In this document: positions 5,012 through 45,017 of the stretch, one piece after another | Numbering within the stretch: position 1 is the first letter of the stretch | Layout of the letters: each line of letters opens with the position of its first letter | Assembly (NCBI GenBank): GCA_964396265.1 | Contig: CAYNEM010000013.1 | Coordinates: 1,681 to 65,680 of the forward strand | Origin: an uncultured Methanomassiliicoccales archaeon | GTDB lineage: Archaea > Thermoplasmatota > Thermoplasmata > RBG-16-68-12 > EA-27 | Direction: 5' to 3' | DNA: 64,000 nt | Notes under the pieces: generated by a model | The model's database searches: none | Seen by the model: only the letters and a program-made list of their open reading frames with translations | What the model was told of the DNA's origin: nothing | Program-made: the position numbers and the translations under genes

Positions 5012-5112
5012 AGCCCCGTGGTCTAGCGGTCAAGGATACGAGGCTCTGGATCCGCCGTTCCGACGGCGCGAGGAGAGACCTTGTGGCGGCAGTTCGAATC
5101 TGCCCGGGGCTA
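5012..5112 (+). tRNA. tRNA-Gln (anticodon CUG) with a 28-nt intron at the canonical 37/38 position
   Basis: Acceptor AGCCCCG/CGGGGCT plus discriminator A. D arm GTCT..GGAT. Anticodon stem CGAGG/CCTTG. Loop CT-CTG-G[intron 5050-5077]A. T arm GGCAG-TTCGAAT-CTGCC. The intron has an internal hairpin CGCCG-TTCCGA-CGGCG, and its 3' AGAG pairs with CTCT of the loop (BHB-like). No encoded CCA. Confidence 0.85.
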
Positions 5113-5293: not shown

Positions 5294-5806
5294 ATGCGTG
5301 AGACGCGCGATGCAGACGCTGAGCTCTTCGCCGCGGTCCAGACGTTCCATCGAGCGATGGCCGAGGTCGTCCATCCGATGTTCGAGGAGGTCGGCGTCAC
5401 GAACGGGCAGTTCTTCCTCCTCTTCTTCATCGAGAAGATGCCCCGGCCGACCGTCGGGTCGATCGCGGACCAGCTCGGCGTCCAGATGTCCACGGTGACC
5501 CATCTCCTGAACGCCGTCGAGGAGCGTGGACTCGTGCGGCGCGAGCGATCGTCCGAGGACCGCCGCGTCGTCCGACTCGTGGTGACCTCGCGCGGTTCGA
5601 AGCTCCTCGCAAGGATCGAGGGCCACCTCCTCGACCAGGTCCGATCCGCGTCCTCGGGGATCGACGAGGGGAAGAAGACCGCCGCCAGCCGGCTGCTGAA
5701 CGAGATTGCGTCGCGCATCCGAGGCGCCGAAGGCGATACCGGCGCCCGCGCCTCCCTTCCGTCTCACGCTCCCAAGAAGAAGCCCACGAGAGGTGGTCGA
5801 AGATGA
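5294..5806 (+). CDS. MarR-family transcriptional regulator
   Basis: 'VTNGQFFLLFFIEKMPRPTVGSIADQLGVQMSTVTHLLNAVEERGLVRRERSSEDRRVVRLVVTSRG' is a classic MarR wHTH. Its stop overlaps the ABC ATPase start (ATGA). Confidence 0.85.
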   Translation: MRETRDADAELFAAVQTFHRAMAEVVHPMFEEVGVTNGQFFLLFFIEKMPRPTVGSIADQLGVQMSTVTHLLNAVEERGLVRRERSSEDRRVVRLVVTSRGSKLLARIEGHLLDQVRSASSGIDEGKKTAASRLLNEIASRIRGAEGDTGARASLPSHAPKKKPTRGGRR

Positions 5807-33604: not shown

Positions 33605-34306
33605 TCACGAGATGAGGTCCGTCACGCGGAATCCGTGGTCGAACACGAGGGCGTGGTACCCGGTGTCGTGACGCGCGCCCCTCATCTTCACCACGCGGAT
33701 CCTGCGCTGCACCTCGAAGTCCCCGCGCTGTTCGAGGCTGAGGTGGAGGATGCCGTCCGCGAGGTAGTCCTCCCGGTGCTTCCCGAACGCCTGCGGGGCG
33801 TGGCCCTTCGCGTTCGAAGGGAGTTCGCCGATGACGAACGAGGTGCAGGCGAGCCCTCGCAGCCACTTGAACAACTCCAGCACGTCCTTCCGGTAGTTCT
33901 GGAACCTTGCGAGGACCTCGAGCGCGTCGAGCGAGTCCAGCACGAGCGTCTCGTAAGGGAAGCCCACGCGCACGCTCTGCGTGTACATCTTGAACAGGTC
34001 CACCCACGAACCCTCGTCCGCCAATTTCTTGCGGAGGGCGGCGAGGTCCAGGATGCTCAGCGCATTCCCCAGCATCGCGGGGTCGAACCCCAGGCTCTCC
34101 GCATGGTCCGCAAGGCTCGCGCGGCTCTGCTCCAGGCTCACGTATAGGCCCTTCGTCCCGCGGATGGCGTTCTCGTACAGGACGGAATACGCGAGGGACG
34201 TCTTCATCGTCCCCGGCGCGCCCGCGAGCAGGACGACGTGGCCCGCGGGGATGCCTCCGCCCAGGATGCGATCGAGTTCCTCCGTGTGCGTCTTCAGTTT
34301 CTTCAT
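33605..34306 (-). CDS. KaiC-like ATPase, single module (last gene of the operon)
   Basis: 233 aa from ATG 34306 with GGAGG upstream. 'LDRILGGGIPAGHVVLLAGAPGTMKTSLA', 'LVLDSLDAL' and 'RRIRVVKMRGARHD'. The rest of track ORF 33605..36148 is out-of-frame shadow. Confidence 0.9.
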   Translation of the reverse strand: MKKLKTHTEELDRILGGGIPAGHVVLLAGAPGTMKTSLAYSVLYENAIRGTKGLYVSLEQSRASLADHAESLGFDPAMLGNALSILDLAALRKKLADEGSWVDLFKMYTQSVRVGFPYETLVLDSLDALEVLARFQNYRKDVLELFKWLRGLACTSFVIGELPSNAKGHAPQAFGKHREDYLADGILHLSLEQRGDFEVQRRIRVVKMRGARHDTGYHALVFDHGFRVTDLIS

Positions 34307-36030
34307 CTCCCTTCCTCCGCCAATCCGGCCAGCTGGGCCCGCAATCTCTTCGCCCGATCGACGAAGTCTTGACCGGCGGCGACGACGTCCAACGCGCCGC
34401 CAAAGTCCGCCATCACTTCGTCCGCGAGACGAGCCACCTTCGCCAGGTCCTCCGCGCCGATTGCGGAGGTCTCCTTCCGAAGCTTTCGAAGGACCCGCCG
34501 GAACGCGGGATCCCCCGCCGGCCCCAGGCTTGCGACGAAAGCCTCGCGGATCGTCTCCCCCAGGGGAGGACGTTGTTCCGCCTCCGGTACCCAGGCCTCG
34601 AGTCCCAAGATCGACGAAGCCTTCACGACGCCGAGGCCCCCGAGCGTCGCCGCATCCGAGGAAAGGGTGCGGGCCATCACCTGGGTGGGCGGGGTTCGCC
34701 AGAGTCGTTCGAGATCCGCCCCCAGGTCCTCGTTCACCCGCGTCCAACCGGGTTCTGCAGCGCCGTCGGACGGCGCCTGAAGCTCCTGGAGCATGTCGCG
34801 AAGGTACTCCAGCACGTGGGGCACATCCGAGACAGCGAGATCCTGCGGGCGTTTTCCCCAGGTAAGCGCAGCCCGCCACAGGAGGTCCGACGATCCCAAT
34901 CGGGAACGCAGGGCCCCGGCCAACGCCACGTGGAGCTCGGGCGGGGAGAGCCACGCCCCGCGCAAGGCCCGGAACGACTCCCGTTCCTCCGAGGACAGCT
35001 TGGCGAGCGAGACGACCAGGCTCGCGCCCTCGCGCATGCCGAGGATGACGGAATGGATCGCGGCGACCGTGGCCGGGCCGCTGTGGGTGAACGCGTACGA
35101 GGCATCGTCGATCAGGATGGCGCCCTCGGGATGACGGGAGAGGAACTCCGACGCCGTCGCCGCCAACACGCACGCGCACTGCTCCCCTGGCGGGAGAATC
35201 ACGGACTCCACGCCCATGAGCTCCGGGCGCGGACTGCCCGGACCTGCAATCGCCAATGCGGGTCGGGTTCCTGCGGCTGCGAGGAACGTCGCCTCCGCGT
35301 ACGTCGGTCTCATCTCGTCGAGGATGTAGACGCCGGGCGACACCTCCCATGGGATCGGCGAGGACGCTGACGGACGGCCACGAAACGCGAGGGGATTGGC
35401 CCCCCGGAGCGCCTGCGCGTAGAGCACCGCCGCCACCGGCACCGCGAGGTTCGTCCCCACGAACTCTGCGTGACCGAGGATCGTGAGCTCGAAACCGTAC
35501 ACGGGCCCGCCCACCACGAGCGCCACGGTCCCCATGACGACGAGCCACGCCTCCCTGCGCCGGTGCGGCGATTGGCTCCGCGCCGCCAAGGACTCTCCGA
35601 GGGCGATGGCGAGGCACGCGACGGGATAGGCGTTCAGACTGTAGAGACCCGCCTCCGTGCCGAGCTGGAACGCGTGGGAACTCCGCCAGCCGGCCGCGAT
35701 GCCTGCGACGGCCAATCCACCGCCAAAGAGGGCGATCCCCGCACTCGCCACCACACGAAGACGAGACCTCCCGCCAGGAAAGTACGTCATCGCGAATGCG
35801 GCGATGGCGGCGTGGGCGAGGAGGAAGGAGGAGAGCCACAGGGCTTCCCATGGTGCGTCCGGAGAGAGAGCCAGGCGCCCGAAGACGGCGGCGTTGGCGG
35901 TGCTGAACAACGCGAGGGACGCGAGCAGAAGAGCGAGCGGCGCTCGCCGACGGACGGAGATTGCGAGGAGCGCGGAGATCCACAGGGTGGCGGCGATCGC
36001 AGCAAGCACGATGAAGGGGGCGATCGTCAC
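34303..36030 (-). CDS. Polytopic membrane protein (about 6-7 TM) fused to a DUF835-like module and a helical C-terminal domain
   Basis: The N-terminal 250 aa are hydrophobic helices. 'GVYILDEMRPTYAEATFL...ILIDDASYAF...' resembles DUF835. GTGA/ATGA overlaps with both neighbours. Confidence 0.7.
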   Translation of the reverse strand: MTIAPFIVLAAIAATLWISALLAISVRRRAPLALLLASLALFSTANAAVFGRLALSPDAPWEALWLSSFLLAHAAIAAFAMTYFPGGRSRLRVVASAGIALFGGGLAVAGIAAGWRSSHAFQLGTEAGLYSLNAYPVACLAIALGESLAARSQSPHRRREAWLVVMGTVALVVGGPVYGFELTILGHAEFVGTNLAVPVAAVLYAQALRGANPLAFRGRPSASSPIPWEVSPGVYILDEMRPTYAEATFLAAAGTRPALAIAGPGSPRPELMGVESVILPPGEQCACVLAATASEFLSRHPEGAILIDDASYAFTHSGPATVAAIHSVILGMREGASLVVSLAKLSSEERESFRALRGAWLSPPELHVALAGALRSRLGSSDLLWRAALTWGKRPQDLAVSDVPHVLEYLRDMLQELQAPSDGAAEPGWTRVNEDLGADLERLWRTPPTQVMARTLSSDAATLGGLGVVKASSILGLEAWVPEAEQRPPLGETIREAFVASLGPAGDPAFRRVLRKLRKETSAIGAEDLAKVARLADEVMADFGGALDVVAAGQDFVDRAKRLRAQLAGLAEEGR

Positions 36031-36554
36031 CGGTGCGCCTCCAGGTGGAAGGTGACGAGGAGGAGAATCTGCTGCGGATCGCGGGCCTTCCCGCGCGACC
36101 AGACGGTGCGGAAGTCCTCGAGGCCCTTGAAGCCGGCCGCGACGACATCGGTCTCCTCGAGGTCCTCGGCGAGGCAGCGTCGGACGTCCTCGATCTTCAT
36201 GCGGGCGACCTGGCGGTCCTCCTCAAGGACGACCTTCGCCACGGAACCCGGCGGTGGAATCGACGCGCCCAGGGAAACGATCGCGACGGTTTGGGTTCCA
36301 TCCAGACCGCGACCCACCGCCTCTCTCGGGAGCGAGAAGACCCAACGCGGGCGGAGGCCGAACGGCCTCCCCGTGGCGAGCCGCTGGAGGGCGAGAAGGA
36401 CGAGGAATGTCGCGAGCCCCCCCACGAAGAGGAGCGGGAGAAGCCCGAACTGATAGAAGGTGCCGTGAAACCAGAAGCCCGCGACGAGGGTGACCGAGAT
36501 GAGGAACAACAACGCGTAGCGCGTCGTCCTCTCGCGACCTCGGAGCGACATCAT
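36027..36554 (-). CDS. Small membrane protein (2 TM) with a soluble beta-rich C-terminal domain (possibly ASCH/PUA-like, tentative)
   Basis: ATGATG start at 36554. TM helices 'YALLFLISVTLVAGFWF' and 'LLPLLFVGGLATFLVLLAL'. The C-terminal 'VAIVSLG...KIEDVRRCLAEDLEETDVVAAGFKGLEDFRTVW...ILLLVTFHL' loosely resembles an ASCH fold. Confidence 0.55.
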   Translation of the reverse strand: MMSLRGRERTTRYALLFLISVTLVAGFWFHGTFYQFGLLPLLFVGGLATFLVLLALQRLATGRPFGLRPRWVFSLPREAVGRGLDGTQTVAIVSLGASIPPPGSVAKVVLEEDRQVARMKIEDVRRCLAEDLEETDVVAAGFKGLEDFRTVWSRGKARDPQQILLLVTFHLEAHR

Positions 36555-36562
36555 CGTTCCCC

Positions 36563-37294
36563 CTACGAGATCGCCTTCGCGACCTCGAAATAGCCGTTCT
36601 CGAAGACGAGCGTGAAGAAGTCGCTGCTGTGGTTCGCGGACCGCATCTTCGAACACTGGATCCGCCGCTGGAAGGACACGTCCGTCACGGCCTCCAGTCG
36701 AAGGCGGAAGATCGCGTCGGAGAGGAACTCCTCCTCGAGCCCTTCCTCTCCCTCTGCCTCCTCCGCAAGGACCAACGTCGTGCAACCGAGGGAGCGGAGC
36801 CACTCGAACAGGTCGAACGTCTCGCGTCGCGGGTCTTCGAACTCGAGGAGCACGGTCAAGGCGGTCCATGAATCGATGACGAGGAGTTCGAACCCGAACT
36901 CCCGGCGAAGCTGCGAGATCTTCGCCTTCAGGAGCGCAGTCATCGGCCGCTCCGCGGGTCCCAAAGTCCAATCCTTCAGCCTCTTGGCGAGCTTCTCGCG
37001 CACGTCACGGCTGCGACCGAGGTCCAGGACCGGGAGGGCGTCCGACACGCTGGCGGGCTTGAGCCCCAGGGTCGCCATCTGGGAGAGAAAAGCGGCGGCA
37101 TCCTGCTCGACGGTCACGTAGAGCCCCCGGGTGCCCTTCTCGGCATTGCGATACAGGATCGAGTAGGCGACGGAGGACTTCATCGTGCCCGAGGCCCCTC
37201 GGATCAGGACGACCTGACCCTTCGGGATGCCCTGGCCGAGTCCGCCGTCGAACCGTCGGATGTACGTGGGGACGAACGCGCGCAGAGTCCCACC
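36563..37294 (-). CDS. KaiC-like ATPase module with no canonical start codon, in frame directly after the TGA of the upstream KaiC-like gene
   Basis: Codons 37294-37184 read 'GGTLRAFVPTYIRRFDGGLGQGIPKGQVVLIRGASGT' and continue into 'MKSSVAYS...' at 37183. This encodes the LD..LG.GIP.G motif and the P-loop 'GASGTMKSS', with no ATG/GTG/TTG. 'RRIQCSKMRSANH' lies near the C-terminus. Confidence 0.7.
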   Translation of the reverse strand, partial: GGTLRAFVPTYIRRFDGGLGQGIPKGQVVLIRGASGTMKSSVAYSILYRNAEKGTRGLYVTVEQDAAAFLSQMATLGLKPASVSDALPVLDLGRSRDVREKLAKRLKDWTLGPAERPMTALLKAKISQLRREFGFELLVIDSWTALTVLLEFEDPRRETFDLFEWLRSLGCTTLVLAEEAEGEEGLEEEFLSDAIFRLRLEAVTDVSFQRRIQCSKMRSANHSSDFFTLVFENGYFEVAKAIS

Positions 37295-38407
37295 TCACGC
37301 GCCGATGGCGGGGGCAACCTCGAATTCCTTCCCCGGAGCCACGTGCAACGTCATGTAGCCCGTGTCGTGGGCCGTCCCGCGCATCTTCACGATCCGAATC
37401 CTGCGCTGGATCTGTACGTCGGTGACAGAATGGAGGCGAAGCTGGATCATCCCGTCCGCGAGGAAGTCCTCGTCGTGGCGGCCCTGGAACACGTTCCCGC
37501 GGATGACGAAGTCCGGCCGCTCCGCGATGACGAACGACGTGAGCCCCAGGTCGCGAAGCCACTCGAACAGGCGGAAGAGCTCCACGCGCCGGTTCTCGAA
37601 CTTCGCGAGGACCTCCAGCGCTTCCAGGGAGTCGATGACGAGCAGCTGAAGGTGGGCCCCCGCCAGCGCTTTCAACCGCCCCTTCAAATCGTTGAGCCAG
37701 TCCCGCTTTCTCCTCTTGACCGAGCGCCACAGGAGCGTCGCGTCAAGTATCTCCAGGCGACCTTCCACCCGAGAGAAGTCGAGGCCCAAGGTCTCAATCT
37801 GGCGAAACAGGCTGCCGGCGCGTTCCCCGAACGTGATATACAACCCGCCACGAAGGTCCGAGATGGCGTTGTTCGCCAGGATGAACAGTGCGAGGGACGT
37901 CTTCATCGTCCCCGGCGCGCCCGCGATCAGGACCACGGAACCCTGCGGGACGCCGCCGTGAAGCGCCCCGTCAAGCCCCGGGATGTGCGTCGCGATGCGG
38001 GAAAGAGGCGCTCCGGAGTTTCCGCGAGCTCGCAAGACTCCGGGGGCACCAGGCGCCCTCGCCCCTCCCTTCGATTGCGCTCCCGCAGCTCCGGATTCCG
38101 GCCCTCGTCCGGCCAACGCCTGCTCGCGTCGGTCCAACGCGATCTCCCTCACCATCAAGCGCCTCTCCCGTTCGTAGGCGCGGCGCTTTGAAGCTTCTTC
38201 CACCTCCTGGAGGCGGCGCAGCTGCAGGTCGAGAACGAGCCGGGTCGTCTTTCCTTTCCTGAAGCCCTCTGGTGCACGCCGGGACCTGTCCTTCGGGCCG
38301 ACCAGCTCGATCCCCGGACTCCGCAGGATGCAGCCGCACGCACGACATCGAAGCCTCTTGTGGGCGTTCGAGGTCGAACAGTTGGGACATCGCAGGGCCG
38401 TCGTCAT
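37295..38407 (-). CDS. Zinc-ribbon / coiled-coil / KaiC-like ATPase
   Basis: ATG at 38407, 2 nt after the upstream stop. 'CPNCSTSNAHKRLRCRACGC', a charged coiled coil, 'IPGLDGALHGGVPQGSVVLIAGAPGTMKTSLA', 'LVIDSLEAL' and 'RRIRIVKMRGTAHD'. The upstream part of track ORF ..38818 overlaps the neighbouring gene out of frame. Confidence 0.85.
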   Translation of the reverse strand: MTTALRCPNCSTSNAHKRLRCRACGCILRSPGIELVGPKDRSRRAPEGFRKGKTTRLVLDLQLRRLQEVEEASKRRAYERERRLMVREIALDRREQALAGRGPESGAAGAQSKGGARAPGAPGVLRARGNSGAPLSRIATHIPGLDGALHGGVPQGSVVLIAGAPGTMKTSLALFILANNAISDLRGGLYITFGERAGSLFRQIETLGLDFSRVEGRLEILDATLLWRSVKRRKRDWLNDLKGRLKALAGAHLQLLVIDSLEALEVLAKFENRRVELFRLFEWLRDLGLTSFVIAERPDFVIRGNVFQGRHDEDFLADGMIQLRLHSVTDVQIQRRIRIVKMRGTAHDTGYMTLHVAPGKEFEVAPAIGA

Positions 38408-38409
38408 GT

Positions 38410-39132
38410 CTACACGCTCAAGGCCGGGGCGACGCTGAACTTCCCATGTTCCAACACGAGGGCCACGTAGTGCGTCTCGTGCGCACTCTCGCGCATCTTC
38501 ACGACGCGGAGGCGCCGCTGGATCGTGACATCGCTCACCTGATGCATCTTCAGATGGATGATCCCGTCGGCGAGGTAGGCCGCGTCGTTCCTGTGATCCG
38601 CCTCGCCCGGCATGAGGAGGCTCTCGGGGGGTGCCTCCGTGAGCACGAAGCTCGTCGCCCCCAGGCCCCGCAGCCATTCGAAGAGCTCGAACAGCTCTGC
38701 GCGCGGTTCCTTGAAGCCGCCGAGAACCTCCAGGGCCTCGAGGGAATCGAGCGCCAACAGCGAGAACGGCTGGATCTCCCTTCGAGTCTCGACCGCGCGC
38801 GGGAGGAACTCCCGCCACACCGGGGGGCGACCCCTTCCCAATTCCTTCCTGAGGGTCGCCAGGTCGGCGACGCTGACGCGGGCCCCTTCGGCGCCCCCGC
38901 CGAACCCCATCCCTTCCATCTGACCTTCCAAGCTCGCCCTCGTCTGTTCGAGGCTCACGTATACGCTGGCCTTCCCTTCATGGACGGCGTTTTGGTGGAG
39001 GATGGAGTACGTAAGGGACGACTTCATCGTGCCCGGAAGCCCGGAGACGAGGACCACATGCCCTGCGGGGATCCCTCCTCGCATGATCTCGTCGAGCCCT
39101 TCCACATAGGTCCGGAACCGTTGGCGCGTCAT
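38410..39132 (-). CDS. KaiC-like ATPase, single module
   Basis: ATG at 39132. 'VEGLDEIMRGGIPAGHVVLVSGLPGTMKSSLT', 'LALDSLEAL' and 'RRLRVVKMRESAHE'. Confidence 0.9.
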   Translation of the reverse strand: MTRQRFRTYVEGLDEIMRGGIPAGHVVLVSGLPGTMKSSLTYSILHQNAVHEGKASVYVSLEQTRASLEGQMEGMGFGGGAEGARVSVADLATLRKELGRGRPPVWREFLPRAVETRREIQPFSLLALDSLEALEVLGGFKEPRAELFELFEWLRGLGATSFVLTEAPPESLLMPGEADHRNDAAYLADGIIHLKMHQVSDVTIQRRLRVVKMRESAHETHYVALVLEHGKFSVAPALSV

Positions 39133-39136
39133 GGGC

Positions 39137-39541
39137 TCAGATCCCAGACACGATGACTTCGACTTCCCGGGCCGCACGTTCGATGCTGATGAGCACGAGG
39201 CCCATGTTGGCATCGGGGCGCACAATCGTGACGAGGAGCGCCCGCTCCCCCGCTCCCGTGCTGATGACCTTGCCTTCCTCCGCCTCGACGATCGACTGCA
39301 GGAACTTCCCCTGGTTCAGTTCCCTTGCCGCGAGTTCGCTTGTCCCCACGAGTGCGGCGCACATCGCCGCCACCTTCTTGGGATCCGAGCCTTTCGGAAG
39401 GATGTGGGAGATGATGAGGCCGTCCCGACGGGCCACGGCGACGGCGATAACGTCGGCGAGCCTGCGGAGACTTTCCATCGCGGTCGCCAGGTCGCCCTCG
39501 ATGCCTGACACCGACCCGCCGGTGCTATATCCGGAGATCAT
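39137..39541 (-). CDS. Roadblock/LC7 (MglB-like) protein
   Basis: 'ESLRRLADVIAVAVARRDGLIISHILP...KKVAAMCAALVGTSELAAREL...QSIVEAEEGKVISTGAGERALLVTIV' is the canonical Robl_LC7 pattern. ATGA overlap with the GTPase gene. Confidence 0.9.
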   Translation of the reverse strand: MISGYSTGGSVSGIEGDLATAMESLRRLADVIAVAVARRDGLIISHILPKGSDPKKVAAMCAALVGTSELAARELNQGKFLQSIVEAEEGKVISTGAGERALLVTIVRPDANMGLVLISIERAAREVEVIVSGI

Positions 39542-40698
39542 CGAGCACCCACCAGCTGCTCGGCGAGGAGGGTCAGACCCTCCAGCAGGCCCTTGCCCTC
39601 GGTTGCCACGGTGGCGACCACGGGGACCGTGGAAGCTAGGGAAAGGGACTGACGGATCTTCTCAGGTTCCATCGCGCCGCCCAAGTCCATCTTGTTCGCG
39701 AGGACGACCAAAGGCACGTCGGATCCCACGATTCCCAGGATCTGCTTCGCGCGCGGGAGGTCCTCCTCGCGCGTGCTGTCCACAACCAGGAGAACCCCGT
39801 TCACCTGACGAGCAAAGATCTGGAAGATGAACTCGAACCGTTCCTGGCCCGGCGTCCCGAAGAGCTCCGCCTCGAGCCCGGACACCTGGACGTTTCCATA
39901 GTCGAATGCCACCGTGGTCCCGAGCCGATCGACGCTCATCGCGTTCTGACACAGCTTCTGCACGACGGTGGACTTGCCCGCGTCCGGAGGGCCCGTGACC
40001 AGGATGCGCGGAAAGTACACGCTCAGACCGACGAGCTCCCGGAACGTGAGCGGAATCCAGTTCGTCGCGCGCGTCCCCGGCCGTTGGTCCCGGATCCGCA
40101 TGTAGTGTTCGAGGATCCCCGTCCTCATCTTGGATTGGAACTCCACCGTGTAGTCGTTGGTGTCGTTCATCCTCTGGACTTCCTTCTGGCCATACAGCCA
40201 GTTCAGGAACATGTAGCAGACGACGGACCCCGTCGACTTCGTGACCTCGGACAGTCGCCGCCATCGTTCGAAGAGACCTTCCGTCGAGACGCGATCGGCC
40301 AAGAACTCCATCGAATCGATCACGATCCTCTGAGGTTTCTCGTCCCGGACGGCCTGTTCGATCGTGTCCATGATCCCGTCGAACGTGTCGATGCTGTGCA
40401 CGATGTATCGCTCCGTGGACGGAATGAGGAGCTGGGAGCTCGTCCCGTCCACGAACACGAGGCGATCCTCCGGGAAGGGACCGAACTTGCGGAGGTCCCT
40501 TCGGGCGAGGGCCGGCGCCCGGTAGAAATCGACGTAGAGGCAACGCTCCCCTTCCTTGAGTCCCGTGGTCACGAACTGTTCGGCAAAGAGGCGGCGCTCG
40601 GTGGGATGGTCGCTGAAGAACAAGATCGTCGAGGGCTTCTCGAAGCCTCCCCCCAGCCACGAGTCGAGGATTTGAAGTCCCGTGTGCGCCCGGTCCGT
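39538..40698 (-). CDS. Degenerate (P-loop-less) KaiC-like module fused to an MglA-like/COG2229-type small GTPase; its conserved N-terminus follows an in-frame TGA
   Basis: Codons 40698-40624 read 'TDRAHTGLQILDSWLGGGFEKPSTI' with no ATG/GTG/TTG, and the track start is TTG at 40623. The P-loop position reads 'FFSDHPTERR'. 'IVIDSMEFL' is present. GTPase motifs: G1 'TGPPDAGKST', G3 'LFGTPGQERF' (MglA-type), G4 'LANKMDL'. Confidence 0.8.
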   Translation of the reverse strand, partial: TDRAHTGLQILDSWLGGGFEKPSTILFFSDHPTERRLFAEQFVTTGLKEGERCLYVDFYRAPALARRDLRKFGPFPEDRLVFVDGTSSQLLIPSTERYIVHSIDTFDGIMDTIEQAVRDEKPQRIVIDSMEFLADRVSTEGLFERWRRLSEVTKSTGSVVCYMFLNWLYGQKEVQRMNDTNDYTVEFQSKMRTGILEHYMRIRDQRPGTRATNWIPLTFRELVGLSVYFPRILVTGPPDAGKSTVVQKLCQNAMSVDRLGTTVAFDYGNVQVSGLEAELFGTPGQERFEFIFQIFARQVNGVLLVVDSTREEDLPRAKQILGIVGSDVPLVVLANKMDLGGAMEPEKIRQSLSLASTVPVVATVATEGKGLLEGLTLLAEQLVGAR

Positions 40699-41367
40699 TC
40701 ACGCCACCCCCAGGACCTGGAACGTCTGCCACTTCGGCGTTGCCGCCATGCCGCGCAGATGATGGGTCCGGACCTCGCGGTCCATGGACTCCGTGAACCG
40801 CATCTCCAGGACGCCGTCCACGAGGGAGCGCAGGAGGTTCAGAGTCTGCGGGTCGTGGACGCCCTCCTGGACGGCGTAGGCGATGGACCCCAGTTCAGTC
40901 TTGACGCGATTCGTCACCATCTGCAGGAATTTCGCGATGGCCTGCGGGGAGTTGTGCAGGAAGAGAGTGGTGATGCTGTAGAAGAGAATGCGGACCGGCA
41001 GACCCATGGAAACCGAGGCGCGCGAAATCGCCATGCCCAGCGCTTCGAGGTTGGAGTAGCTGCTAACCGTCCAGAGCTTCGGGTTGTTCGCGTCATCGGA
41101 CGTTGATTGAGCGCTCGAGGAGTAGCAGTCGATAAAGGCGAAGTTCGTCCCCTCGGATCTGCCGAGGTCAAGACCCATCGCTTCCGCTCGTCTTCGAATC
41201 TCGCGGGGGTGGACGTCCAGGGTCACAAAGACGACGCGCTCGTTCCCGCGAAGATAGGCCCGCGCGGAGGCCAGCAACCACTCGAACTTGCCGATCCCCG
41301 GAGGACCGACCAGCAAGATGGAATAGTGTCTCGGTAGAGATTCGGCAACGGCTTCCGTGTCCATCAT
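40699..41367 (-). CDS. KaiC-like ATPase module (P-loop GPPGIGKF)
   Basis: 'YSILLVGPPGIGKFEWLLASARAYL...VVFVTLD...' and 'REVRTHHLRGMAATP' (KaiC-family C-terminal R..K/R.RG motif variant). Ends with TGA at 40701-40699. Confidence 0.8.
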   Translation of the reverse strand: MMDTEAVAESLPRHYSILLVGPPGIGKFEWLLASARAYLRGNERVVFVTLDVHPREIRRRAEAMGLDLGRSEGTNFAFIDCYSSSAQSTSDDANNPKLWTVSSYSNLEALGMAISRASVSMGLPVRILFYSITTLFLHNSPQAIAKFLQMVTNRVKTELGSIAYAVQEGVHDPQTLNLLRSLVDGVLEMRFTESMDREVRTHHLRGMAATPKWQTFQVLGVA

Positions 41368-41393
41368 CGACCCCCCCGAAACGTCTCATCGCG

Positions 41394-41972
41394 CTAACGG
41401 TCCGATGGCGAAGTCCCCCTGCGCTTGAGTCCCGCGCGCGCAATCCTGTCGGCAAGGGTTAGGAAGGCGAGGTCGACGTTCTGACCCGTCCTCGCGCTTG
41501 TGAGCCAGCTCGGGGCGGAGAAGTCCTCCGCGACCTCGTTGATTACCGCCATTGCATCCGGCTCGGCGGAGAGGTCGCTCTTCGCCCCCAGCACGACGAT
41601 CGGGACATGCCCGGAGACGTGGCACGCCGCGTCGATCCAGTCCGCCGTCGCCCCGATCGTCCGGGACCGCGTCAGGTCGCCGACCGCAAGGACTCCCTGG
41701 AGCGCTGAGAAATACACGTCCTTGAGCAGATCTCGGAACGAGGGTTCCCCCATGATGTCCCAGATGGTCAAAACCGCATGGACCGGGTGGTCGTCGACGA
41801 AGAGATCGAACTCCTTCTTCGACACCTTCGCTCCCAAGGTTGCGTGGTAGTGGTCGTCCCACTGGTCGTACACGAACCGGCGGACGAGGCTCGACTTGCC
41901 CACCCCCGGTTCGCCAACCAGGCACACTTTGGCTCTCATCACCTCAAGACGTTCGGTACCTGGAACTGCCAT
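41394..41972 (-). CDS. Rab/Ras-like small GTPase
   Basis: G1 'KVCLVGEPGVGKSSLVRRFV', switch I 'YHATLG', G3 'LTIWDIMGEPSF', G4 variant 'VVLGAKSDL', G5 'TSARTG'. Starts 6 nt after the giant-protein stop. Confidence 0.85.
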   Translation of the reverse strand: MAVPGTERLEVMRAKVCLVGEPGVGKSSLVRRFVYDQWDDHYHATLGAKVSKKEFDLFVDDHPVHAVLTIWDIMGEPSFRDLLKDVYFSALQGVLAVGDLTRSRTIGATADWIDAACHVSGHVPIVVLGAKSDLSAEPDAMAVINEVAEDFSAPSWLTSARTGQNVDLAFLTLADRIARAGLKRRGTSPSDR

Positions 41973-41978
41973 CCGTTT

Positions 41979-44900
41979 TCACCTCTCCTGTGTCGCGGCC
42001 TCTACCGCCGGCGCCCGCCGCCCGAGGGGGAGTTTGCCCTCGATCCGCGCGGCGGCCGGCTTCATGTTTCCTCGCCTCGCGATGCGCTTGCGCGTGAGGA
42101 CCACGGACAAAACGAGAACGCCCGCGACAAGGATGCTCGGGAACTCCGGGATCTGCAGGTGACCCCACGTCCCTGGGTTGTTCTGGTTGACGTTGTCGGA
42201 ACCCCAAGTGTAGGTCGTGAAGGTGGTGTCGTCAAACCCGAGGACCGCGAAACCGGCGACCTGGTTCGCGCTCGTCGAGTTCGTGCCCCAGACATCCCAG
42301 AAGGAGATGCTGAACTCGTACACCTGCCGGGAGTTGTTGAACGCCCCCACCGCTGACGGCGAGGAGCACGAGCCGCTACAGGACACCCAGCCCGCCCCAT
42401 TCCCTTTTTCTGAGGTCAGAGAGCCGCCGCTCGTCACCCGGAACCGCCGATCGTCGCTCTGGGGCACAGATCCTCCGTCGTGGTTCCTGTCGAACACCAA
42501 TCGGCCCGAATCGACGGCGCCGTCATCGGTCGTGTCCGCGGTCACCTCGAGGCACACGTAGACGCGCGAGCTCGCCGACCGGCGGCCGACGAGGAACTTC
42601 AGGTTCGCGTTGCTCAGCTCGTCCGCGCCATGGTACTCGCTTGAGCTCGTGCCGCAGTTTCCATCCACGGTCGGGATGTTCGTGAGCGGCTTCGCGAGGG
42701 CCGTCAGGGCGTTCGTCCCGTGCAAGGGTATCAAGCCCGGACTCGCGCGGGTCCCATCCTGTTCCTCCGGCTCTGTCGCGTCCGCGGCCCCGGACCAGTC
42801 CGCCGTGATGACGATCACCCACTTTCCCTCGACCGCTGCGTCAGGGATGAGGGCGCCCGCCTCAAGCTCCTCGGCACCCAGACCCGTCGCTACCGGAGCT
42901 TCCCATTCCCACTCCGTCCCCGACCAGCGATAGGCGCTCGCGTTGTCGACCTGGCCCCCCCGGCCCTGAACATCGACGAAGCGGTCGAAGGAACGCCCGC
43001 CGAGCGTGATGCCGCCCCCCACCTCATCTGTACCGAGGTAGAAACGCACGTAGTCGCGCCCGACACGCGGTGGCGGAGGCGGCGGAGCGGCAGAAGCGCC
43101 GGGTGCACCCTCCCCGTCCGGCTCAGGCCTCAACAGGCGATCCGGCACGAGGCTGCCCTCCAATGCAGGTCCGAGGAGCCTCACGTACAGGAAGACCTGG
43201 TCCCCTGCGGCGAACGCGTCCCGGCTCACGATATTCATGGAGGATCTGCTGACACCGCGAAGATCTGTCTCGTCCGATTCTGGATTGGGCCAGTCCGCGA
43301 AGAGACCGTCAATACGCTTCAAGTTCTCGGGTGGGGGCTGTCCCACGTAGGCCCGGGCCTCGAATCCGACGACGGCGAACGGTCGATCCGCCACGACGGA
43401 AACGACTCCTGCGGACACGAGCGACCCTTGAGGAAGCGCCATGGGGTCCGCCGTAACCACGCGGGTCACCGGGGTCCCTTCGACGACCTCGAGGTCCTCT
43501 GGAATCGCCGCGAACGCCGCACCGGCACTCGTACGAAGCTCGACGCGTTGCACGTGAACCCGAGCCCCTGCTCCGATCGCCTCGAACCGGAGCGCGAGAA
43601 ACGGCTGGTGCCCGCTCTGCAGTGTCGTGACAAGGACCTGTTGCGTCACACGAAGCGCGCCGAGGGCAAGGCCGATGGGAACGACGGTGTGGCTCGTCTC
43701 TCCCGCGTTGTCATCCGAGGCGAACCTCGCGCGCAGGGAGGTCGGAGCGAGCTCCGCGAGGAGGTACGTCGGCACCTCAACCTCGAGCTCCCGACCGTTC
43801 GCCGCCGCTGACAAATCGACATCGCGCTTCCAGCCATTCCAGTCCGCACGATTGTCCCCCTCGAACCGCATTATGACCGCCTGCTCCACGACGCCGCCCG
43901 ATCCGGAAACTCGTGCCAAGTAGTCCGCGCCGAGCTCCCCCAGGTCGTATCCCGTGGTCAGATTGCCATCGACGTCGAGGAATCCATGGACCGTATCGTA
44001 GTCCAATGGGTCTGCGAGTGCGGATCCCGCGACTTCGACTCGGAAGAAGAGGGAGGCATCCGCAAGCTTGAGCGACACGGACTGAATGCGCACGTTCGGA
44101 CTCGTCGTGAAAGTTCCTTCCGCATAAGCGGGGACAGCCTTCCAGTCATCGAAGGAGCCGTCGATGGAAATCTCGCGTACTTGCGGCGGGGGAGAGAGGA
44201 GTTGAACCATGGTGGCCGTGGCCATCAGGAGGGCGGCCGCGATCACTATGTGCCGCGGGAGGAACCGTCCGCGTGGTGGAGCAACCGGTGGGGGAGGAAT
44301 TGCGTTCGGGATTCCAATCCCGTTGACGAGCCCGTTTACACGTCCATTGCCCTTGGCCGGTCCGCGTCCATTGACCAGCCCGTTGACGCGGCCAGTCCCG
44401 TTCGCGACTCCGCGTCCATTGACCAGCCCGTTGACGCGGCCAGTCCCGTTCGCGACTCCGCGTCCATTGACCAGCCCGTTGACGCGGCCAGTCCCGCTCG
44501 CGACTCCGCGTCCATTGACCAGCCCGTTGACGCGGCCTGTCCCGTTCACGTGGCTGTCGTTGTTCCTTTTCAAGTCGGTCGGCCGATGCCCGGGCGACCA
44601 AAGCCGAGACCAGCCCGGCGATTCGCTGATCAAACCACGACGTTGCGAGGCCGTGGGATCCGACTGTGCCCTATGTCCCTCCCTGAGGAGTTGCGCCGAC
44701 GCCGGGCCGAACCCAGAAAACGCCGGAAGCGCAGGCAGGCCGTCCGACGCGTTGCCCCGTGGGGAGACCTCCTCATACGTGTACCAAGAGGAGCAAGCTG
44801 GAGCCGGAGGATCCCCGTACCTAGAACTTGCGCGAGGCACGCCCGTGCAAACGAACCTGGTCGGATTCGTTGACCCACATCGAACGCAAGCGATTTCTGG

Positions 44901-45017
44901 ACCGGCCTGCCTGAGGAGATCCGCGACGGCGGTGGAGTTGCAACGAGGACAGACCGAGAGGGGTTGAAGGCTTCCGGAGCATTGCGGGCACCGGTGAAAG
45001 CGATCGAGCCGAAGCAT
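41979..45017 (-). CDS. Giant surface protein: cytoplasmic double zinc ribbon, 16-aa tandem repeats, TM, ectodomain of about 700 aa, PEF-CTERM-like anchor
   Basis: 'CPQCSGSLQPLSVCPRC' and 'CVRCGSTNPTRFVC'. Five repeats of 'GTGRVNGLVNGRGVAN'. TM 'HIVIAAALLMATATMVQLL'. The C-terminus 'LQIPEFPSILVAGVLVLSVVLTRKRIARR' is a PEF motif plus TM plus basic cluster, followed by about 30 more residues. Confidence 0.8.
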   Translation of the reverse strand: MLRLDRFHRCPQCSGSLQPLSVCPRCNSTAVADLLRQAGPEIACVRCGSTNPTRFVCTGVPRASSRYGDPPAPACSSWYTYEEVSPRGNASDGLPALPAFSGFGPASAQLLREGHRAQSDPTASQRRGLISESPGWSRLWSPGHRPTDLKRNNDSHVNGTGRVNGLVNGRGVASGTGRVNGLVNGRGVANGTGRVNGLVNGRGVANGTGRVNGLVNGRGPAKGNGRVNGLVNGIGIPNAIPPPPVAPPRGRFLPRHIVIAAALLMATATMVQLLSPPPQVREISIDGSFDDWKAVPAYAEGTFTTSPNVRIQSVSLKLADASLFFRVEVAGSALADPLDYDTVHGFLDVDGNLTTGYDLGELGADYLARVSGSGGVVEQAVIMRFEGDNRADWNGWKRDVDLSAAANGRELEVEVPTYLLAELAPTSLRARFASDDNAGETSHTVVPIGLALGALRVTQQVLVTTLQSGHQPFLALRFEAIGAGARVHVQRVELRTSAGAAFAAIPEDLEVVEGTPVTRVVTADPMALPQGSLVSAGVVSVVADRPFAVVGFEARAYVGQPPPENLKRIDGLFADWPNPESDETDLRGVSRSSMNIVSRDAFAAGDQVFLYVRLLGPALEGSLVPDRLLRPEPDGEGAPGASAAPPPPPPRVGRDYVRFYLGTDEVGGGITLGGRSFDRFVDVQGRGGQVDNASAYRWSGTEWEWEAPVATGLGAEELEAGALIPDAAVEGKWVIVITADWSGAADATEPEEQDGTRASPGLIPLHGTNALTALAKPLTNIPTVDGNCGTSSSEYHGADELSNANLKFLVGRRSASSRVYVCLEVTADTTDDGAVDSGRLVFDRNHDGGSVPQSDDRRFRVTSGGSLTSEKGNGAGWVSCSGSCSSPSAVGAFNNSRQVYEFSISFWDVWGTNSTSANQVAGFAVLGFDDTTFTTYTWGSDNVNQNNPGTWGHLQIPEFPSILVAGVLVLSVVLTRKRIARRGNMKPAAARIEGKLPLGRRAPAVEAATQER
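44317..44550. repeat. 48-bp in-frame tandem repeat (about 5 copies, 3 nearly identical)
   Basis: The unit CGTCCATTGACCAGCCCGTTGACGCGGCCAGTCCCGTTCGCGACTCCG starts at 44365, 44413, 44461 and 44509, with a degenerate copy upstream. It encodes the GRVNGLVNGRG repeats of the giant protein. Confidence 0.9.

What the first reader, a model, noticed from the sequence alone, without database searches (positions are those of the whole stretch)
36563..38407. In-frame TGA between two KaiC-like modules; the downstream module has no start codon ahead of its own P-loop (case 1)
Seen: the ZnR-coiled-coil-KaiC gene ends GGC GCG TGA at 37297-37295. The next 37 codons, in the same frame (37294-37184), read GGTLRAFVPTYIRRFDGGLGQGIPKGQVVLIRGASGT and contain no ATG, GTG or TTG. 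The first canonical start (ATG 37183) is the Met inside the Walker A 'GASGTMKSS', which aligns with 'GAPGTMKTS' and 'GLPGTMKSS' in the paralogs. Starting there would delete the P-loop glycines and the conserved LD..LG.GIP.G motif. Inference: one option is TGA read-through or recoding, which would give a 614-aa tandem protein (370+1+243 aa) resembling the two-domain CI-CII layout of bona fide KaiC. The others are non-canonical (re)initiation such as CTG 37285, a very recent nonsense mutation, or a sequencing error. The same pattern recurs 3.4 kb upstream (next finding), which argues against a random error.
Basis: partly seen in the sequence, partly recalled or inferred. Interest (0 to 1): 0.75.

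Follow-up and report, generated by a model that had tools for sequence, protein, structure and literature searches.

The report
Two coupled genes; downstream starts at CTG
The in-frame TGA is the ordinary stop of one KaiC-like ATPase gene in an uncultivated Thermoplasmata archaeon, sitting inside the ribosome-binding site of the next gene, and that next gene has the rare start codon CTG where relatives have ATG, GTG or TTG, so there is no read-through fusion.

Summary
The sequence facts are correct. On the minus strand the ZnR-coiled-coil-KaiC gene (38407-37295) ends GCG TGA. The next KaiC module follows in the same frame. No ATG, GTG or TTG occurs for 37 codons, until the Met of the Walker A motif (ATG 37183).

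The read-through/tandem-KaiC reading is not supported. In 84 distinct orthologous junctions the upstream gene ends at the same place (TGA in 80). The stop is usually followed by GG, giving a Shine-Dalgarno-like TGAGG(TG). A start codon lies 4-10 nt downstream in 83 of the 84. The two genes fall in all three relative frames (35/37/12).

The window has CTG (37285-37283) exactly where relatives have ATG (70), GTG (6) or TTG (2). It lies 9 nt after the TGA and 5 nt after GAGGTG.

The CTG is not a sequencing error. A 99.4%-identical contig from another assembly has it. So do two further lineages (89% and 83% protein identity). The gene, including the 33 codons before the Met, is under purifying selection between CTG-bearing lineages.

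The "second case" (40699) is the same kind of thing: ACG sits where the closest relative has ATG directly after the stop.

Best reading: a translationally coupled gene pair with a near-cognate start codon. This is a modest curiosity, not recoding.

The parts
37295..38407 (-). Upstream gene: zinc-ribbon + coiled-coil + KaiC-like ATPase, 370 aa, ATG 38407, natural stop TGA 37297-37295.
   Evidence: Searches give the sequence. Pfam PF06745 matches residues 139-360 with E 5.6e-39. The C-terminus ...EVAPAIGA* matches the ends of the paralogs (VAPALSV*, VAKAIS*, VTDLIS*).
37295..37297 (-). [quoted passage not shown] It overlaps the Shine-Dalgarno-like element of the downstream gene.
   Evidence: The stop is at the same position in 84 of 84 distinct orthologous junctions, and is TGA in 80 of them.
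37291..37296 (-). Shine-Dalgarno-like GAGGTG, 5 nt upstream of the CTG. Its first two bases are the GA of the stop codon.
   Evidence: Searches show the element. A TGAGG(TG/GG/AG) pattern is seen in most orthologs. GAGGTG/GGAGGTG also precedes other gene starts in the window, for example at 5790, 6554 and 41985. Complementarity to the archaeal 16S 3' end is general knowledge and was not tested here, because no 16S rRNA gene lies in the window.
37283..37285 (-). CTG, the proposed initiation codon of the downstream gene, 9 nt after the TGA.
   Evidence: It aligns with ATG/GTG/TTG start codons of orthologs. The same CTG is present in L005, in L059/L060/L136 and in L055.
36563..37285 (-). Downstream gene: single-domain KaiC-like ATPase, 240 codons from CTG to TAG 36565-36563.
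   Evidence: Pfam PF06745 E 1.1e-32. Orthologs are stand-alone proteins of 240-247 aa that cover 97-99% of the query. dN/dS is 0.11-0.21 in the comparisons.
37175..37198 (-). Deviant Walker A GASGTMKS. Its Met codon (ATG 37183-37181) is the first canonical start triplet and the site where gene callers truncate the protein.
   Evidence: The truncated database entries P0003, P0031, P0032 and P0033 all begin MKS....
40696..40701 (-). Second junction ('case 2'): TGA stop of the DUF7504/KaiC-like gene (40701-40699), followed directly by ACG (40698-40696) at the start position of the KaiC-like + Arf-GTPase gene (40698-39538).
   Evidence: Searches show the sequence. L059 (92% id) has TGA ATG at this place. 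More distant orthologs have ATGA or TGATG overlaps. L004 has TAG ACG. GGGGTG lies 6 nt upstream at 40710-40705.
33605..45017 (-). The surrounding operon. Its genes, in order, are: a 1012-aa Zn-ribbon/repeat protein, a Ras-like GTPase, DUF7504, a KaiC-like + Arf GTPase fusion, Roadblock/LC7, KaiC-A, ZnR-CC-KaiC, KaiC-C, a 175-aa protein, a 575-aa protein and KaiC-D. Seven of the eight junctions examined directly in the window have spacings of -4 to +9 nt.
   Evidence: The same gene order is seen in L004, L052 and L003.

Best explanation
These are two separate, adjacent genes of one operon, not one recoded gene. Three points are shown. (1) The TGA at 37297-37295 is the natural stop of the ZnR-coiled-coil-KaiC gene. 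(2) It sits inside a Shine-Dalgarno-like GAGGTG that serves the next gene. (3) Nine nucleotides after the stop, at the exact position where orthologs carry ATG, GTG or TTG, this genome has CTG.

The next steps are inferred. The downstream KaiC-like ATPase is translated from CTG 37285 as a 240-residue protein beginning with Met. The initiator tRNA would pair with CUG through a first-position mismatch, as it does with GUG and UUG. Ribosomes that have just terminated 9 nt upstream, and that the SD holds or re-recruits, probably help initiation. This would be translational coupling by termination-reinitiation and/or SD-directed initiation. A weak start codon would lower the output of this subunit relative to its upstream partner.

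The in-frame relation between the two genes is incidental.
For: Orthologous junctions:
- In 84 distinct junctions the stop is TGA in 80, TAA in 2 and TAG in 2.
- The spacer is 4-10 nt in 83 of 84.
- The relative frame is 0, +1 and +2 in 35, 37 and 12 junctions.
- The start is ATG in 70, GTG in 6, TTG in 2, CTG in 3 and ACG/GCG in 3 (first set).

Closest relatives of the window:
- L056 (91% aa): TGA ggtgagacg TTG.
- L001 (91%): 10-nt spacer, out of frame, TTG.
- L003 (85%): GTG, out of frame.
- L004 (75%): TGA ggtgggacg GTG.

The CTG is real:
- L005 comes from a different assembly. It is 99.4% identical over 3035 nt with 18 mismatches and has the same junction.
- CTG is also present in L059/L060/L136 (89% aa) and in L055 (83%).
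- On an NJ tree these lineages interleave with TTG and GTG lineages, which requires at least 3 start-codon changes. CTG is therefore either long-lived or recurrent.

The gene is under selection:
- All nine close homologs have 240 codons and no indels.
- Between CTG-bearing lineages dN/dS is 0.11-0.18 for the body of the gene and 0.21-0.49 for the 33 codons between the CTG and the Walker-A Met.
- Synonymous changes exceed nonsynonymous ones in that segment with p = 0.002 (L059 vs L055) and p = 0.02 (WIN vs L055).

Other support:
- The Pfam and PDB KaiC alignments start within 5-8 residues of the stop.
- Non-canonical starts also occur in out-of-frame junctions (ACG lineages L006/L051/L052/L066 and L053/L054/L065, frame +1), where read-through could not rescue the gene.
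- Neighbouring junctions in the same loci are canonical: 76/76 and 42/42.
- Literature: gene pairs 10 nt apart or less are the class predicted to couple by termination-reinitiation in archaea and bacteria, and they are enriched for subunits of heteromeric complexes (PMC10666635, PMC6728339).
Against: No expression data exist. Nothing here shows that CUG is actually used as the start or how efficiently.

The review of archaeal initiation that I consulted lists only AUG, GUG and UUG as start codons (PMC7531240). Near-cognate sites seen by ribosome profiling in Haloferax volcanii were not validated (PMC7261190).

All three CTG lineages happen to be in frame with the upstream stop. This is not significant (Fisher p = 0.10), but it means low-level read-through cannot be formally excluded for them.

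One related lineage (L071/L137) has GCG at the start position and no near-cognate codon nearby. The near-cognate model does not explain that lineage.

The SD/anti-SD pairing is assumed from general archaeal 16S 3' ends. No 16S sequence is available for this genome.
Confidence: 0.75

Rival explanations
1. UGA read-through or recoding joins the two modules into a 614-aa tandem, KaiC-like CI-CII protein.
For: The two ORFs are in frame with a single TGA between them. All three CTG-bearing lineages have the 9-nt in-frame spacer.
Against: The relative frame is not conserved: 35, 37 and 12 of 84 junctions fall in frames 0, +1 and +2. The 91%- and 85%-identical relatives L001 and L003 are out of frame.

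Orthologs have their own SD and canonical start. The upstream protein ends at the family's normal C-terminal motif.

The RNA around and 3' of the stop is less structured than shuffled controls (z = +1.87). TGA is a working stop elsewhere in the window, for example at convergent gene ends 9502 and 13950.

Non-canonical starts also occur in out-of-frame lineages.
Confidence: 0.05
2. The start codon has been lost, and the downstream gene is silent or decaying (an incipient pseudogene), or is expressed only at trace level.
For: In E. coli CTG is a poor initiator, of the order of 1% of ATG or less (from memory of Hecht et al. 2017, which is cited in PMC10666635). Gene callers find no start (P0003).
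Against: The CTG state is shared by three lineages separated by dS of about 0.4-0.7. Their ORFs are intact at 240 codons and dN/dS is 0.11-0.18. The N-terminal 33 codons are also constrained.
Confidence: 0.08
3. Translation starts at another codon. One option is ATG 37183, giving a 206-aa protein as annotated in databases. Another is a different near-cognate codon further in, such as ACG 37267-37265 or ATC 37261-37259.
For: ATG 37183 is the first canonical start. Pipelines call it (P0003).
Against: ATG 37183 lies inside the Walker A motif. A start there would delete the conserved N-terminal strand and the P-loop glycines. The preceding 33 codons are under purifying selection in CTG lineages. 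Only the CTG sits at the orthologous start position with 5-nt SD spacing.
Confidence: 0.08
4. The pattern comes from a sequencing or assembly error at the stop or the start codon.
For: None beyond the oddity itself.
Against: An identical junction is found in an independent 99.4%-identical contig (L005). The same CTG is found in four further contigs from other samples.
Confidence: 0.01

Closest known systems
Translationally coupled unidirectional gene pairs, coupled by termination-reinitiation and/or an SD overlapping the upstream stop (Huber et al. 2019, PMC6728339; PMC10666635)
   Same: Both genes are on the same strand and 9 nt apart, within the -8 to +10 nt class predicted to couple. An SD-like element overlaps the stop codon. 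The pair sits in an operon in which most junctions examined are -4 to +9 nt. The products are paralogous subunits that probably form a hetero-oligomer.
   Different: The start codon is CTG rather than ATG, GTG or TTG. Coupling itself was not tested here.
Non-AUG initiation at near-cognate codons (CUG, ACG). NCBI translation table 11 lists CTG as a possible initiator; AUU at infC in E. coli and CUG starts in eukaryotes are known examples (from my own knowledge).
   Same: There is a single first-position (CUG) or second-position (ACG) mismatch to AUG. A good SD lies at normal spacing. The N-terminal extension is conserved.
   Different: This case is in an archaeon, where the review I consulted lists only AUG, GUG and UUG (PMC7531240). 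The support is evolutionary persistence, not experiment.
Cyanobacterial KaiC (double-domain CI-CII, about 519 aa; e.g. PDB 1tf7, 8zn5)
   Same: Each module is a KaiC/RecA-like ATPase domain (PF06745; PDB hits to KaiC down to E 2e-15).
   Different: These are single-domain proteins encoded by separate genes. The Walker A is GxxGTMK[ST] rather than GxxGxGK[ST]. No CI-CII fusion exists in any ortholog examined.
Single-domain archaeal KaiC-like / RAD55-family ATPases (e.g. Pyrococcus PH0186 2zts, PH0284 2dr3, Sulfolobus SSO2452 2w0m)
   Same: They are stand-alone KaiC-like domains of about 240 aa. Database names for the orthologs are 'KaiC/GvpD/RAD55 family RecA-like ATPase'.
   Different: Here four paralogs are clustered with Ras/Arf-like GTPases and Roadblock/LC7. 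The P-loop carries a Met.

Membership tests
KaiC/RecA-like ATPase domain family (Pfam PF06745) | Significant full-length match to the domain profile | tested here: met
   The upstream module has E 5.6e-39 and the downstream module E 1.1e-32, covering profile positions 1-221 of 231.
KaiC/RecA-like ATPase domain family (Pfam PF06745) | Canonical Walker A GxxxxGK[ST] | tested here: not met
   The motif is GASGTMKS, with Met in place of the Gly before the Lys. Met is invariant in alignment A1. Whether ATP is still bound or hydrolysed was not tested.
Bona fide double-domain KaiC (CI-CII in one polypeptide) | Two KaiC domains encoded in one continuous ORF, conserved among orthologs | tested here: not met
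   A stop codon separates the modules in 84 of 84 junctions, and the relative frame varies.
Programmed stop-codon read-through / UGA recoding (Sec or sense reassignment) | The downstream ORF stays in frame with the stop across relatives and has no initiation signals of its own | tested here: not met
   Frames 0, +1 and +2 occur in 35, 37 and 12 junctions. An SD plus a canonical start is present in 78 of 84.
Programmed stop-codon read-through / UGA recoding (Sec or sense reassignment) | A stimulatory RNA structure 3' of the stop, or genome-wide absence of TGA as a stop | tested here: not met
   The fold z-score is +1.87, with 195 of 200 shuffles folding at least as well. TGA ends many ORFs, including convergent gene ends.
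Translational coupling by termination-reinitiation | Co-directional genes overlapping or 10 nt apart or less | tested here: met
   The spacer is 9 nt in the window and 4-10 nt in 83 of 84 orthologous junctions. The criterion comes from PMC10666635.
Translational coupling by termination-reinitiation | Downstream translation depends on translation and termination of the upstream gene | not testable with these tools
   This needs a two-reporter assay with premature stops in the upstream gene.
Near-cognate (CUG) translation initiation | A near-cognate codon at the position of the orthologous start, with an SD at functional spacing, and a conserved coding sequence beginning there | tested here: met
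Near-cognate (CUG) translation initiation | A mapped protein N-terminus or ribosome initiation peak at the codon | not testable with these tools
   No proteomic or ribosome-profiling data are available for this uncultivated lineage.

The most novel reading that the evidence does not exclude
In this family of soil and sediment Thermoplasmata, ribosomes at very tightly coupled junctions (0-10 nt after the upstream stop, with the SD overlapping the stop) accept CUG and ACG as start codons well enough for these states to persist under purifying selection. One lineage may even lack any near-cognate codon at the start position. If so, start-codon stringency would be relaxed during archaeal reinitiation, and weak start codons may be used to set the stoichiometry of subunits of a KaiC-like / small-GTPase / Roadblock assembly.
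Probability: 0.3. Interest if true: 0.6.

Novelty: new member of a known kind. Interest (0 to 1): 0.33.

Why it matters
The finding removes a false lead. There is no stop-codon recoding and no tandem KaiC here.

It has a practical consequence for annotation. Gene callers that allow only ATG, GTG and TTG truncate this protein at the Met inside its own P-loop. Public databases already hold several such clipped entries (P0003, P0031, P0032, P0033, P0004, P0036). Domain and active-site inferences made from those entries would be wrong.

It also has a modest scientific value. It gives a natural, evolutionarily replicated set of junctions (ATG, GTG, TTG, CTG and ACG at the same position, with spacers of 4-10 nt). 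That set could be used to test how start-codon identity and termination-reinitiation interact in archaea, where near-cognate initiation has been glimpsed by ribosome profiling but not validated.

Tried and rejected
- Genome-wide TGA reassignment. Rejected: TGA ends many ORFs, including convergent gene ends.
- A GTG overlapping the stop (GCGTGA). It is in the wrong frame for the downstream module.
- A read-through-stimulating RNA structure. None: the junction folds worse than shuffled sequence.
- Rfam scan of the window. Only two tRNAs, with no recoding element and no rRNA.
- Other genes in the window with start-less coding 5' extensions. Only the two KaiC junctions qualify.
- An SD-motif scan as a start predictor. 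It is too unspecific in this 66% GC sequence, with many internal hits. I used it only to show that GAGGTG/GGAGGTG precedes some other real starts.
- An automated control for every operon junction. The KaiC-Arf->Roadblock and Roadblock->KaiC-A results were artefacts of an extra Roadblock paralog and of cross-hits between KaiC paralogs. Only the clean junctions (KaiC-C->175aa, 175aa->575aa, 575aa->KaiC-D) were used.
- Literature search for documented CTG starts in archaea. Nothing relevant was found in the held library.
- Association of CTG with the in-frame spacer. Not significant (p = 0.10).
Full report
**1. Observation**

The sequence facts hold. On the minus strand an ORF starts at ATG 38407. 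It encodes a zinc ribbon, a coiled coil and a KaiC-like ATPase domain, and it ends ...GGC GCG TGA at 37297-37295. The same frame continues GGT GGG ACT CTG CGC GCG TTC... to TAG 36565-36563.

The first ATG, GTG or TTG after the TGA is ATG 37183, 37 codons in. That codon is the Met of GASGTMKSS. Pfam's KaiC profile (PF06745) matches the 243-codon stretch from its residue 8 and from profile position 1. The alignment to solved KaiC structures begins at residue 5 of the 240-aa product.

The bare pattern is not improbable. Canonical start triplets are 6.3% of codons in this operon, so 36 codons without one has p about 0.10. One in three neighbours is in frame by chance. TGA is a working stop elsewhere in the window, for example at the convergent gene ends 9502 and 13950. 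A reassigned genetic code is therefore not in play.

**2. Organism and context**

Homologs are named KaiC/GvpD/RAD55-family ATPases of Thermoplasmata / 'Methanobacteriota' MAGs from soil and sediment. The window is 58-72% G+C in 2-kb windows, mostly 65-69%.

The two modules lie in a long minus-strand operon (33605-45017). Its genes, in order:
- a 1012-aa Zn-ribbon/repeat protein
- a Ras-like GTPase
- a DUF7504/KaiC-like protein
- a KaiC-like + Arf-like GTPase fusion
- Roadblock/LC7
- KaiC-A (240 aa)
- ZnR-CC-KaiC (370 aa)
- KaiC-C (the downstream module)
- a 175-aa protein and a 575-aa protein without Pfam hits
- KaiC-D (233 aa)

The same gene order is seen in related contigs. Seven of the eight junctions checked directly in the window are tight, from a 4-nt ATGA overlap to 9 nt; the Ras -> DUF7504 gap is 26 nt.

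Each KaiC-like paralog ends with the same short motif at its own stop: VAPALSV*, VAPAIGA*, VAKAIS*, VTDLIS*. The TGA at 37295 is therefore where this domain family normally ends.

**3. Orthologous junctions (the decisive evidence)**

A protein search with the 243-codon stretch found stand-alone proteins of 240-247 aa that cover 97-99% of it. Their Met aligns with the Leu encoded by CTG 37285. I fetched the DNA of 130-odd related loci. For each I located the upstream gene's stop and the downstream gene's start.

Among 84 distinct junction sequences:

| Feature | Result |
|---|---|
| Stop codon | TGA 80, TAA 2, TAG 2 |
| Spacer | 4-10 nt in 83 (mode 9-10) |
| Relative frame (0 / +1 / +2) | 35 / 37 / 12 |
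| Start codon | ATG 70, GTG 6, TTG 2, CTG 3, ACG/GCG 3 |

The stop is usually followed by GG, giving TGAGG(TG), a Shine-Dalgarno-like element that overlaps the stop. This explains why TGA is so strongly preferred. GAGGTG/GGAGGTG also precedes other gene starts in the window, including the Ras-like GTPase gene, whose SD again overlaps the preceding stop.

The frame relation is not conserved and the downstream gene has its own initiation signals. A conserved read-through fusion is therefore excluded.

**4. What is unusual in this genome**

Junctions of the window and its closest relatives:

| Locus | Protein identity | Junction |
|---|---|---|
| Window | - | TGA ggtgggact CTG cgcgcg |
| L056 | 91% | TGA ggtgagacg TTG |
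| L001/L002 | 91% | TGA ggtgagatcc TTG (10 nt, out of frame) |
| L003/L057/L058 | 85% | TGA ggtgaaccgc GTG (out of frame) |
| L004/L061/L062 | 75% | TGA ggtgggacg GTG |
| L059/L060/L136 | 89% | TGA ggtgagacg CTG |
| L055 | 83% | TGA ggtgagacg CTG |

The window thus has CTG exactly at the orthologous start, 5 nt after GAGGTG.

It is not an error. L005, a contig from another assembly, is 99.4% identical over 3035 nt with 18 mismatches and has the identical junction. Two further lineages carry CTG (table above).

On a neighbour-joining tree the CTG lineages interleave with TTG and GTG lineages. At least three start-codon changes are needed, so CTG is either long-lived or recurrent.

All nine close homologs are exactly 240 codons long with no indels. 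Between CTG-bearing lineages dN/dS is 0.11-0.18 for the body of the gene. For the 33 codons between the CTG and the Walker-A Met it is 0.21-0.49. Synonymous changes exceed nonsynonymous ones there with p = 0.002 and p = 0.02 in two of three comparisons. The N-terminal segment is therefore translated and the gene is functional in genomes that have CTG.

**5. Related non-canonical junctions**

Two sister lineages at 68-69% identity (L053/L054/L065 and L006/L051/L052/L066) have 'TGA nnnn ACG' in frame +1. ACG sits where neighbours have ATG. Read-through could not rescue these.

At 40701-40696 the window reads TGA ACG. The 92%-identical L059 reads TGA ATG. More distant orthologs have ATGA or TGATG overlaps. 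L004 reads TAG ACG. GGGGTG lies 6 nt upstream of the ACG.

Clean control junctions in the same loci are canonical. KaiC-C -> 175-aa gene is 76/76. 575-aa gene -> KaiC-D is 42/42, all with -4 overlaps. In the 64-kb window only these two ORFs show a coding-like, start-less 5' extension.

One lineage (L071/L137) has GCG at the start position and no near-cognate codon nearby. This is unexplained.

**6. Mechanism**

Shown: there are two genes; the stop is conserved inside an SD-like element; CTG sits at the orthologous start; the CTG state persists under purifying selection.

Inferred: translation initiates at CUG with initiator tRNA, through a first-position mismatch as for GUG and UUG. Ribosomes terminating 9 nt upstream probably assist.

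Supporting literature:
- Gene pairs 10 nt apart or less are the class predicted to couple by termination-reinitiation. They are enriched for subunits of heteromeric complexes (PMC6728339, PMC10666635).
- A review of archaeal initiation lists only AUG, GUG and UUG as start codons (PMC7531240).
- Ribosome profiling in Haloferax volcanii found about 30% of putative alternative initiation sites at near-cognate codons but did not pursue them (PMC7261190).

The junction RNA is less structured than shuffled controls (z = +1.87). That fits an open initiation region and gives no support to a read-through stimulator. A weak start codon would reduce the output of this subunit. Whether that is adaptive is speculation.

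**7. Rivals**

- Read-through fusion, about 0.05. It cannot be formally excluded as a minor product in the in-frame CTG lineages. The association of CTG with the in-frame spacer is not significant (p = 0.10).
- Start loss or a decaying gene, about 0.08. Selection and persistence argue against it.
- Another start site, about 0.08. ATG 37183 would destroy the domain.
- Sequencing error, about 0.01.

**8. Comparison with what is known, and novelty**

This is a standard translationally coupled gene pair with the SD overlapping the upstream stop. Its products are single-domain archaeal KaiC-like (RAD55-family) ATPases, not a CI-CII KaiC. The only non-standard element is the near-cognate start codon. 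That is a known but rare phenomenon: translation table 11 lists CTG as an initiator. It is poorly documented in archaea.

I file it as a new member of a known kind. Interest is modest. The main values are correcting annotation and offering a natural allelic series for testing start-codon stringency at coupled junctions.

Noticed in passing
window 39132-38410, 38407-37295, 37285-36563, 34306-33605 (minus strand): All four single-domain KaiC-like modules carry a deviant Walker A, G-x-x-G-T-M-K-[ST], with Met in place of the Gly before the catalytic Lys. Met and Lys are invariant across the homolog alignment, whereas solved KaiC structures have GTGK. Whether these proteins still bind or hydrolyse ATP is open.
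   Followed up: partly
window 40696-40710 (minus strand); L004 about 2625-2660; the corresponding junction in L059: At the second junction (DUF7504 -> KaiC-like + Arf GTPase) ACG directly follows the stop, where the 92%-identical relative has ATG. L004 also has ACG, after a TAG stop. More distant orthologs use ATGA or TGATG overlaps.
   Followed up: partly
L071 about 900-925; L137 about 210-240: A related lineage has GCG at the orthologous start position, in frame +1 relative to the upstream gene, with no ATG/GTG/TTG/CTG/ACG/ATH within reach of the SD. Where its translation starts is unexplained.
   Followed up: partly
window 5012-5112 (+): A tRNA with anticodon CUG (Gln) carries an insertion of about 31 nt (an intron) in the anticodon loop region. 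Rfam found it and ARAGORN missed it.
   Followed up: partly
public proteins P0003, P0031, P0032, P0033, P0004, P0036: Database versions of this gene are truncated. They are called from the Met inside the Walker A or from a later GTG, because the true start is non-canonical. Such entries lack the N-terminal strand and half of the P-loop.
   Followed up: yes
window 41972-41987 (minus strand): The stop TGA of the 1012-aa gene lies inside GAGAGGTGA, 6 nt before the ATG of the Ras-like GTPase gene. This is the same SD-over-stop design as at 37295.
   Followed up: partly
window 41979-45017 (minus strand): The 1012-aa protein has N-terminal zinc ribbons, a run of NGxGRVNGLVNGRGVA repeats and a C-terminal transmembrane-like tail. 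Its only Pfam hit is a weak one to TackOD1.
   Followed up: no
L136 about 1990-2217: In this contig, which has an L059-type CTG junction, the KaiC-C ORF diverges after EEEFL into unrelated sequence. This is a likely assembly chimera or rearrangement.
   Followed up: no
L076, L081, L091, L118, L130 (about 1150-1600): The more distant clade (52-57% identity) has an additional Roadblock/LC7 gene immediately after the KaiC-Arf gene, starting at TAGATG or TGATG.
   Followed up: partly
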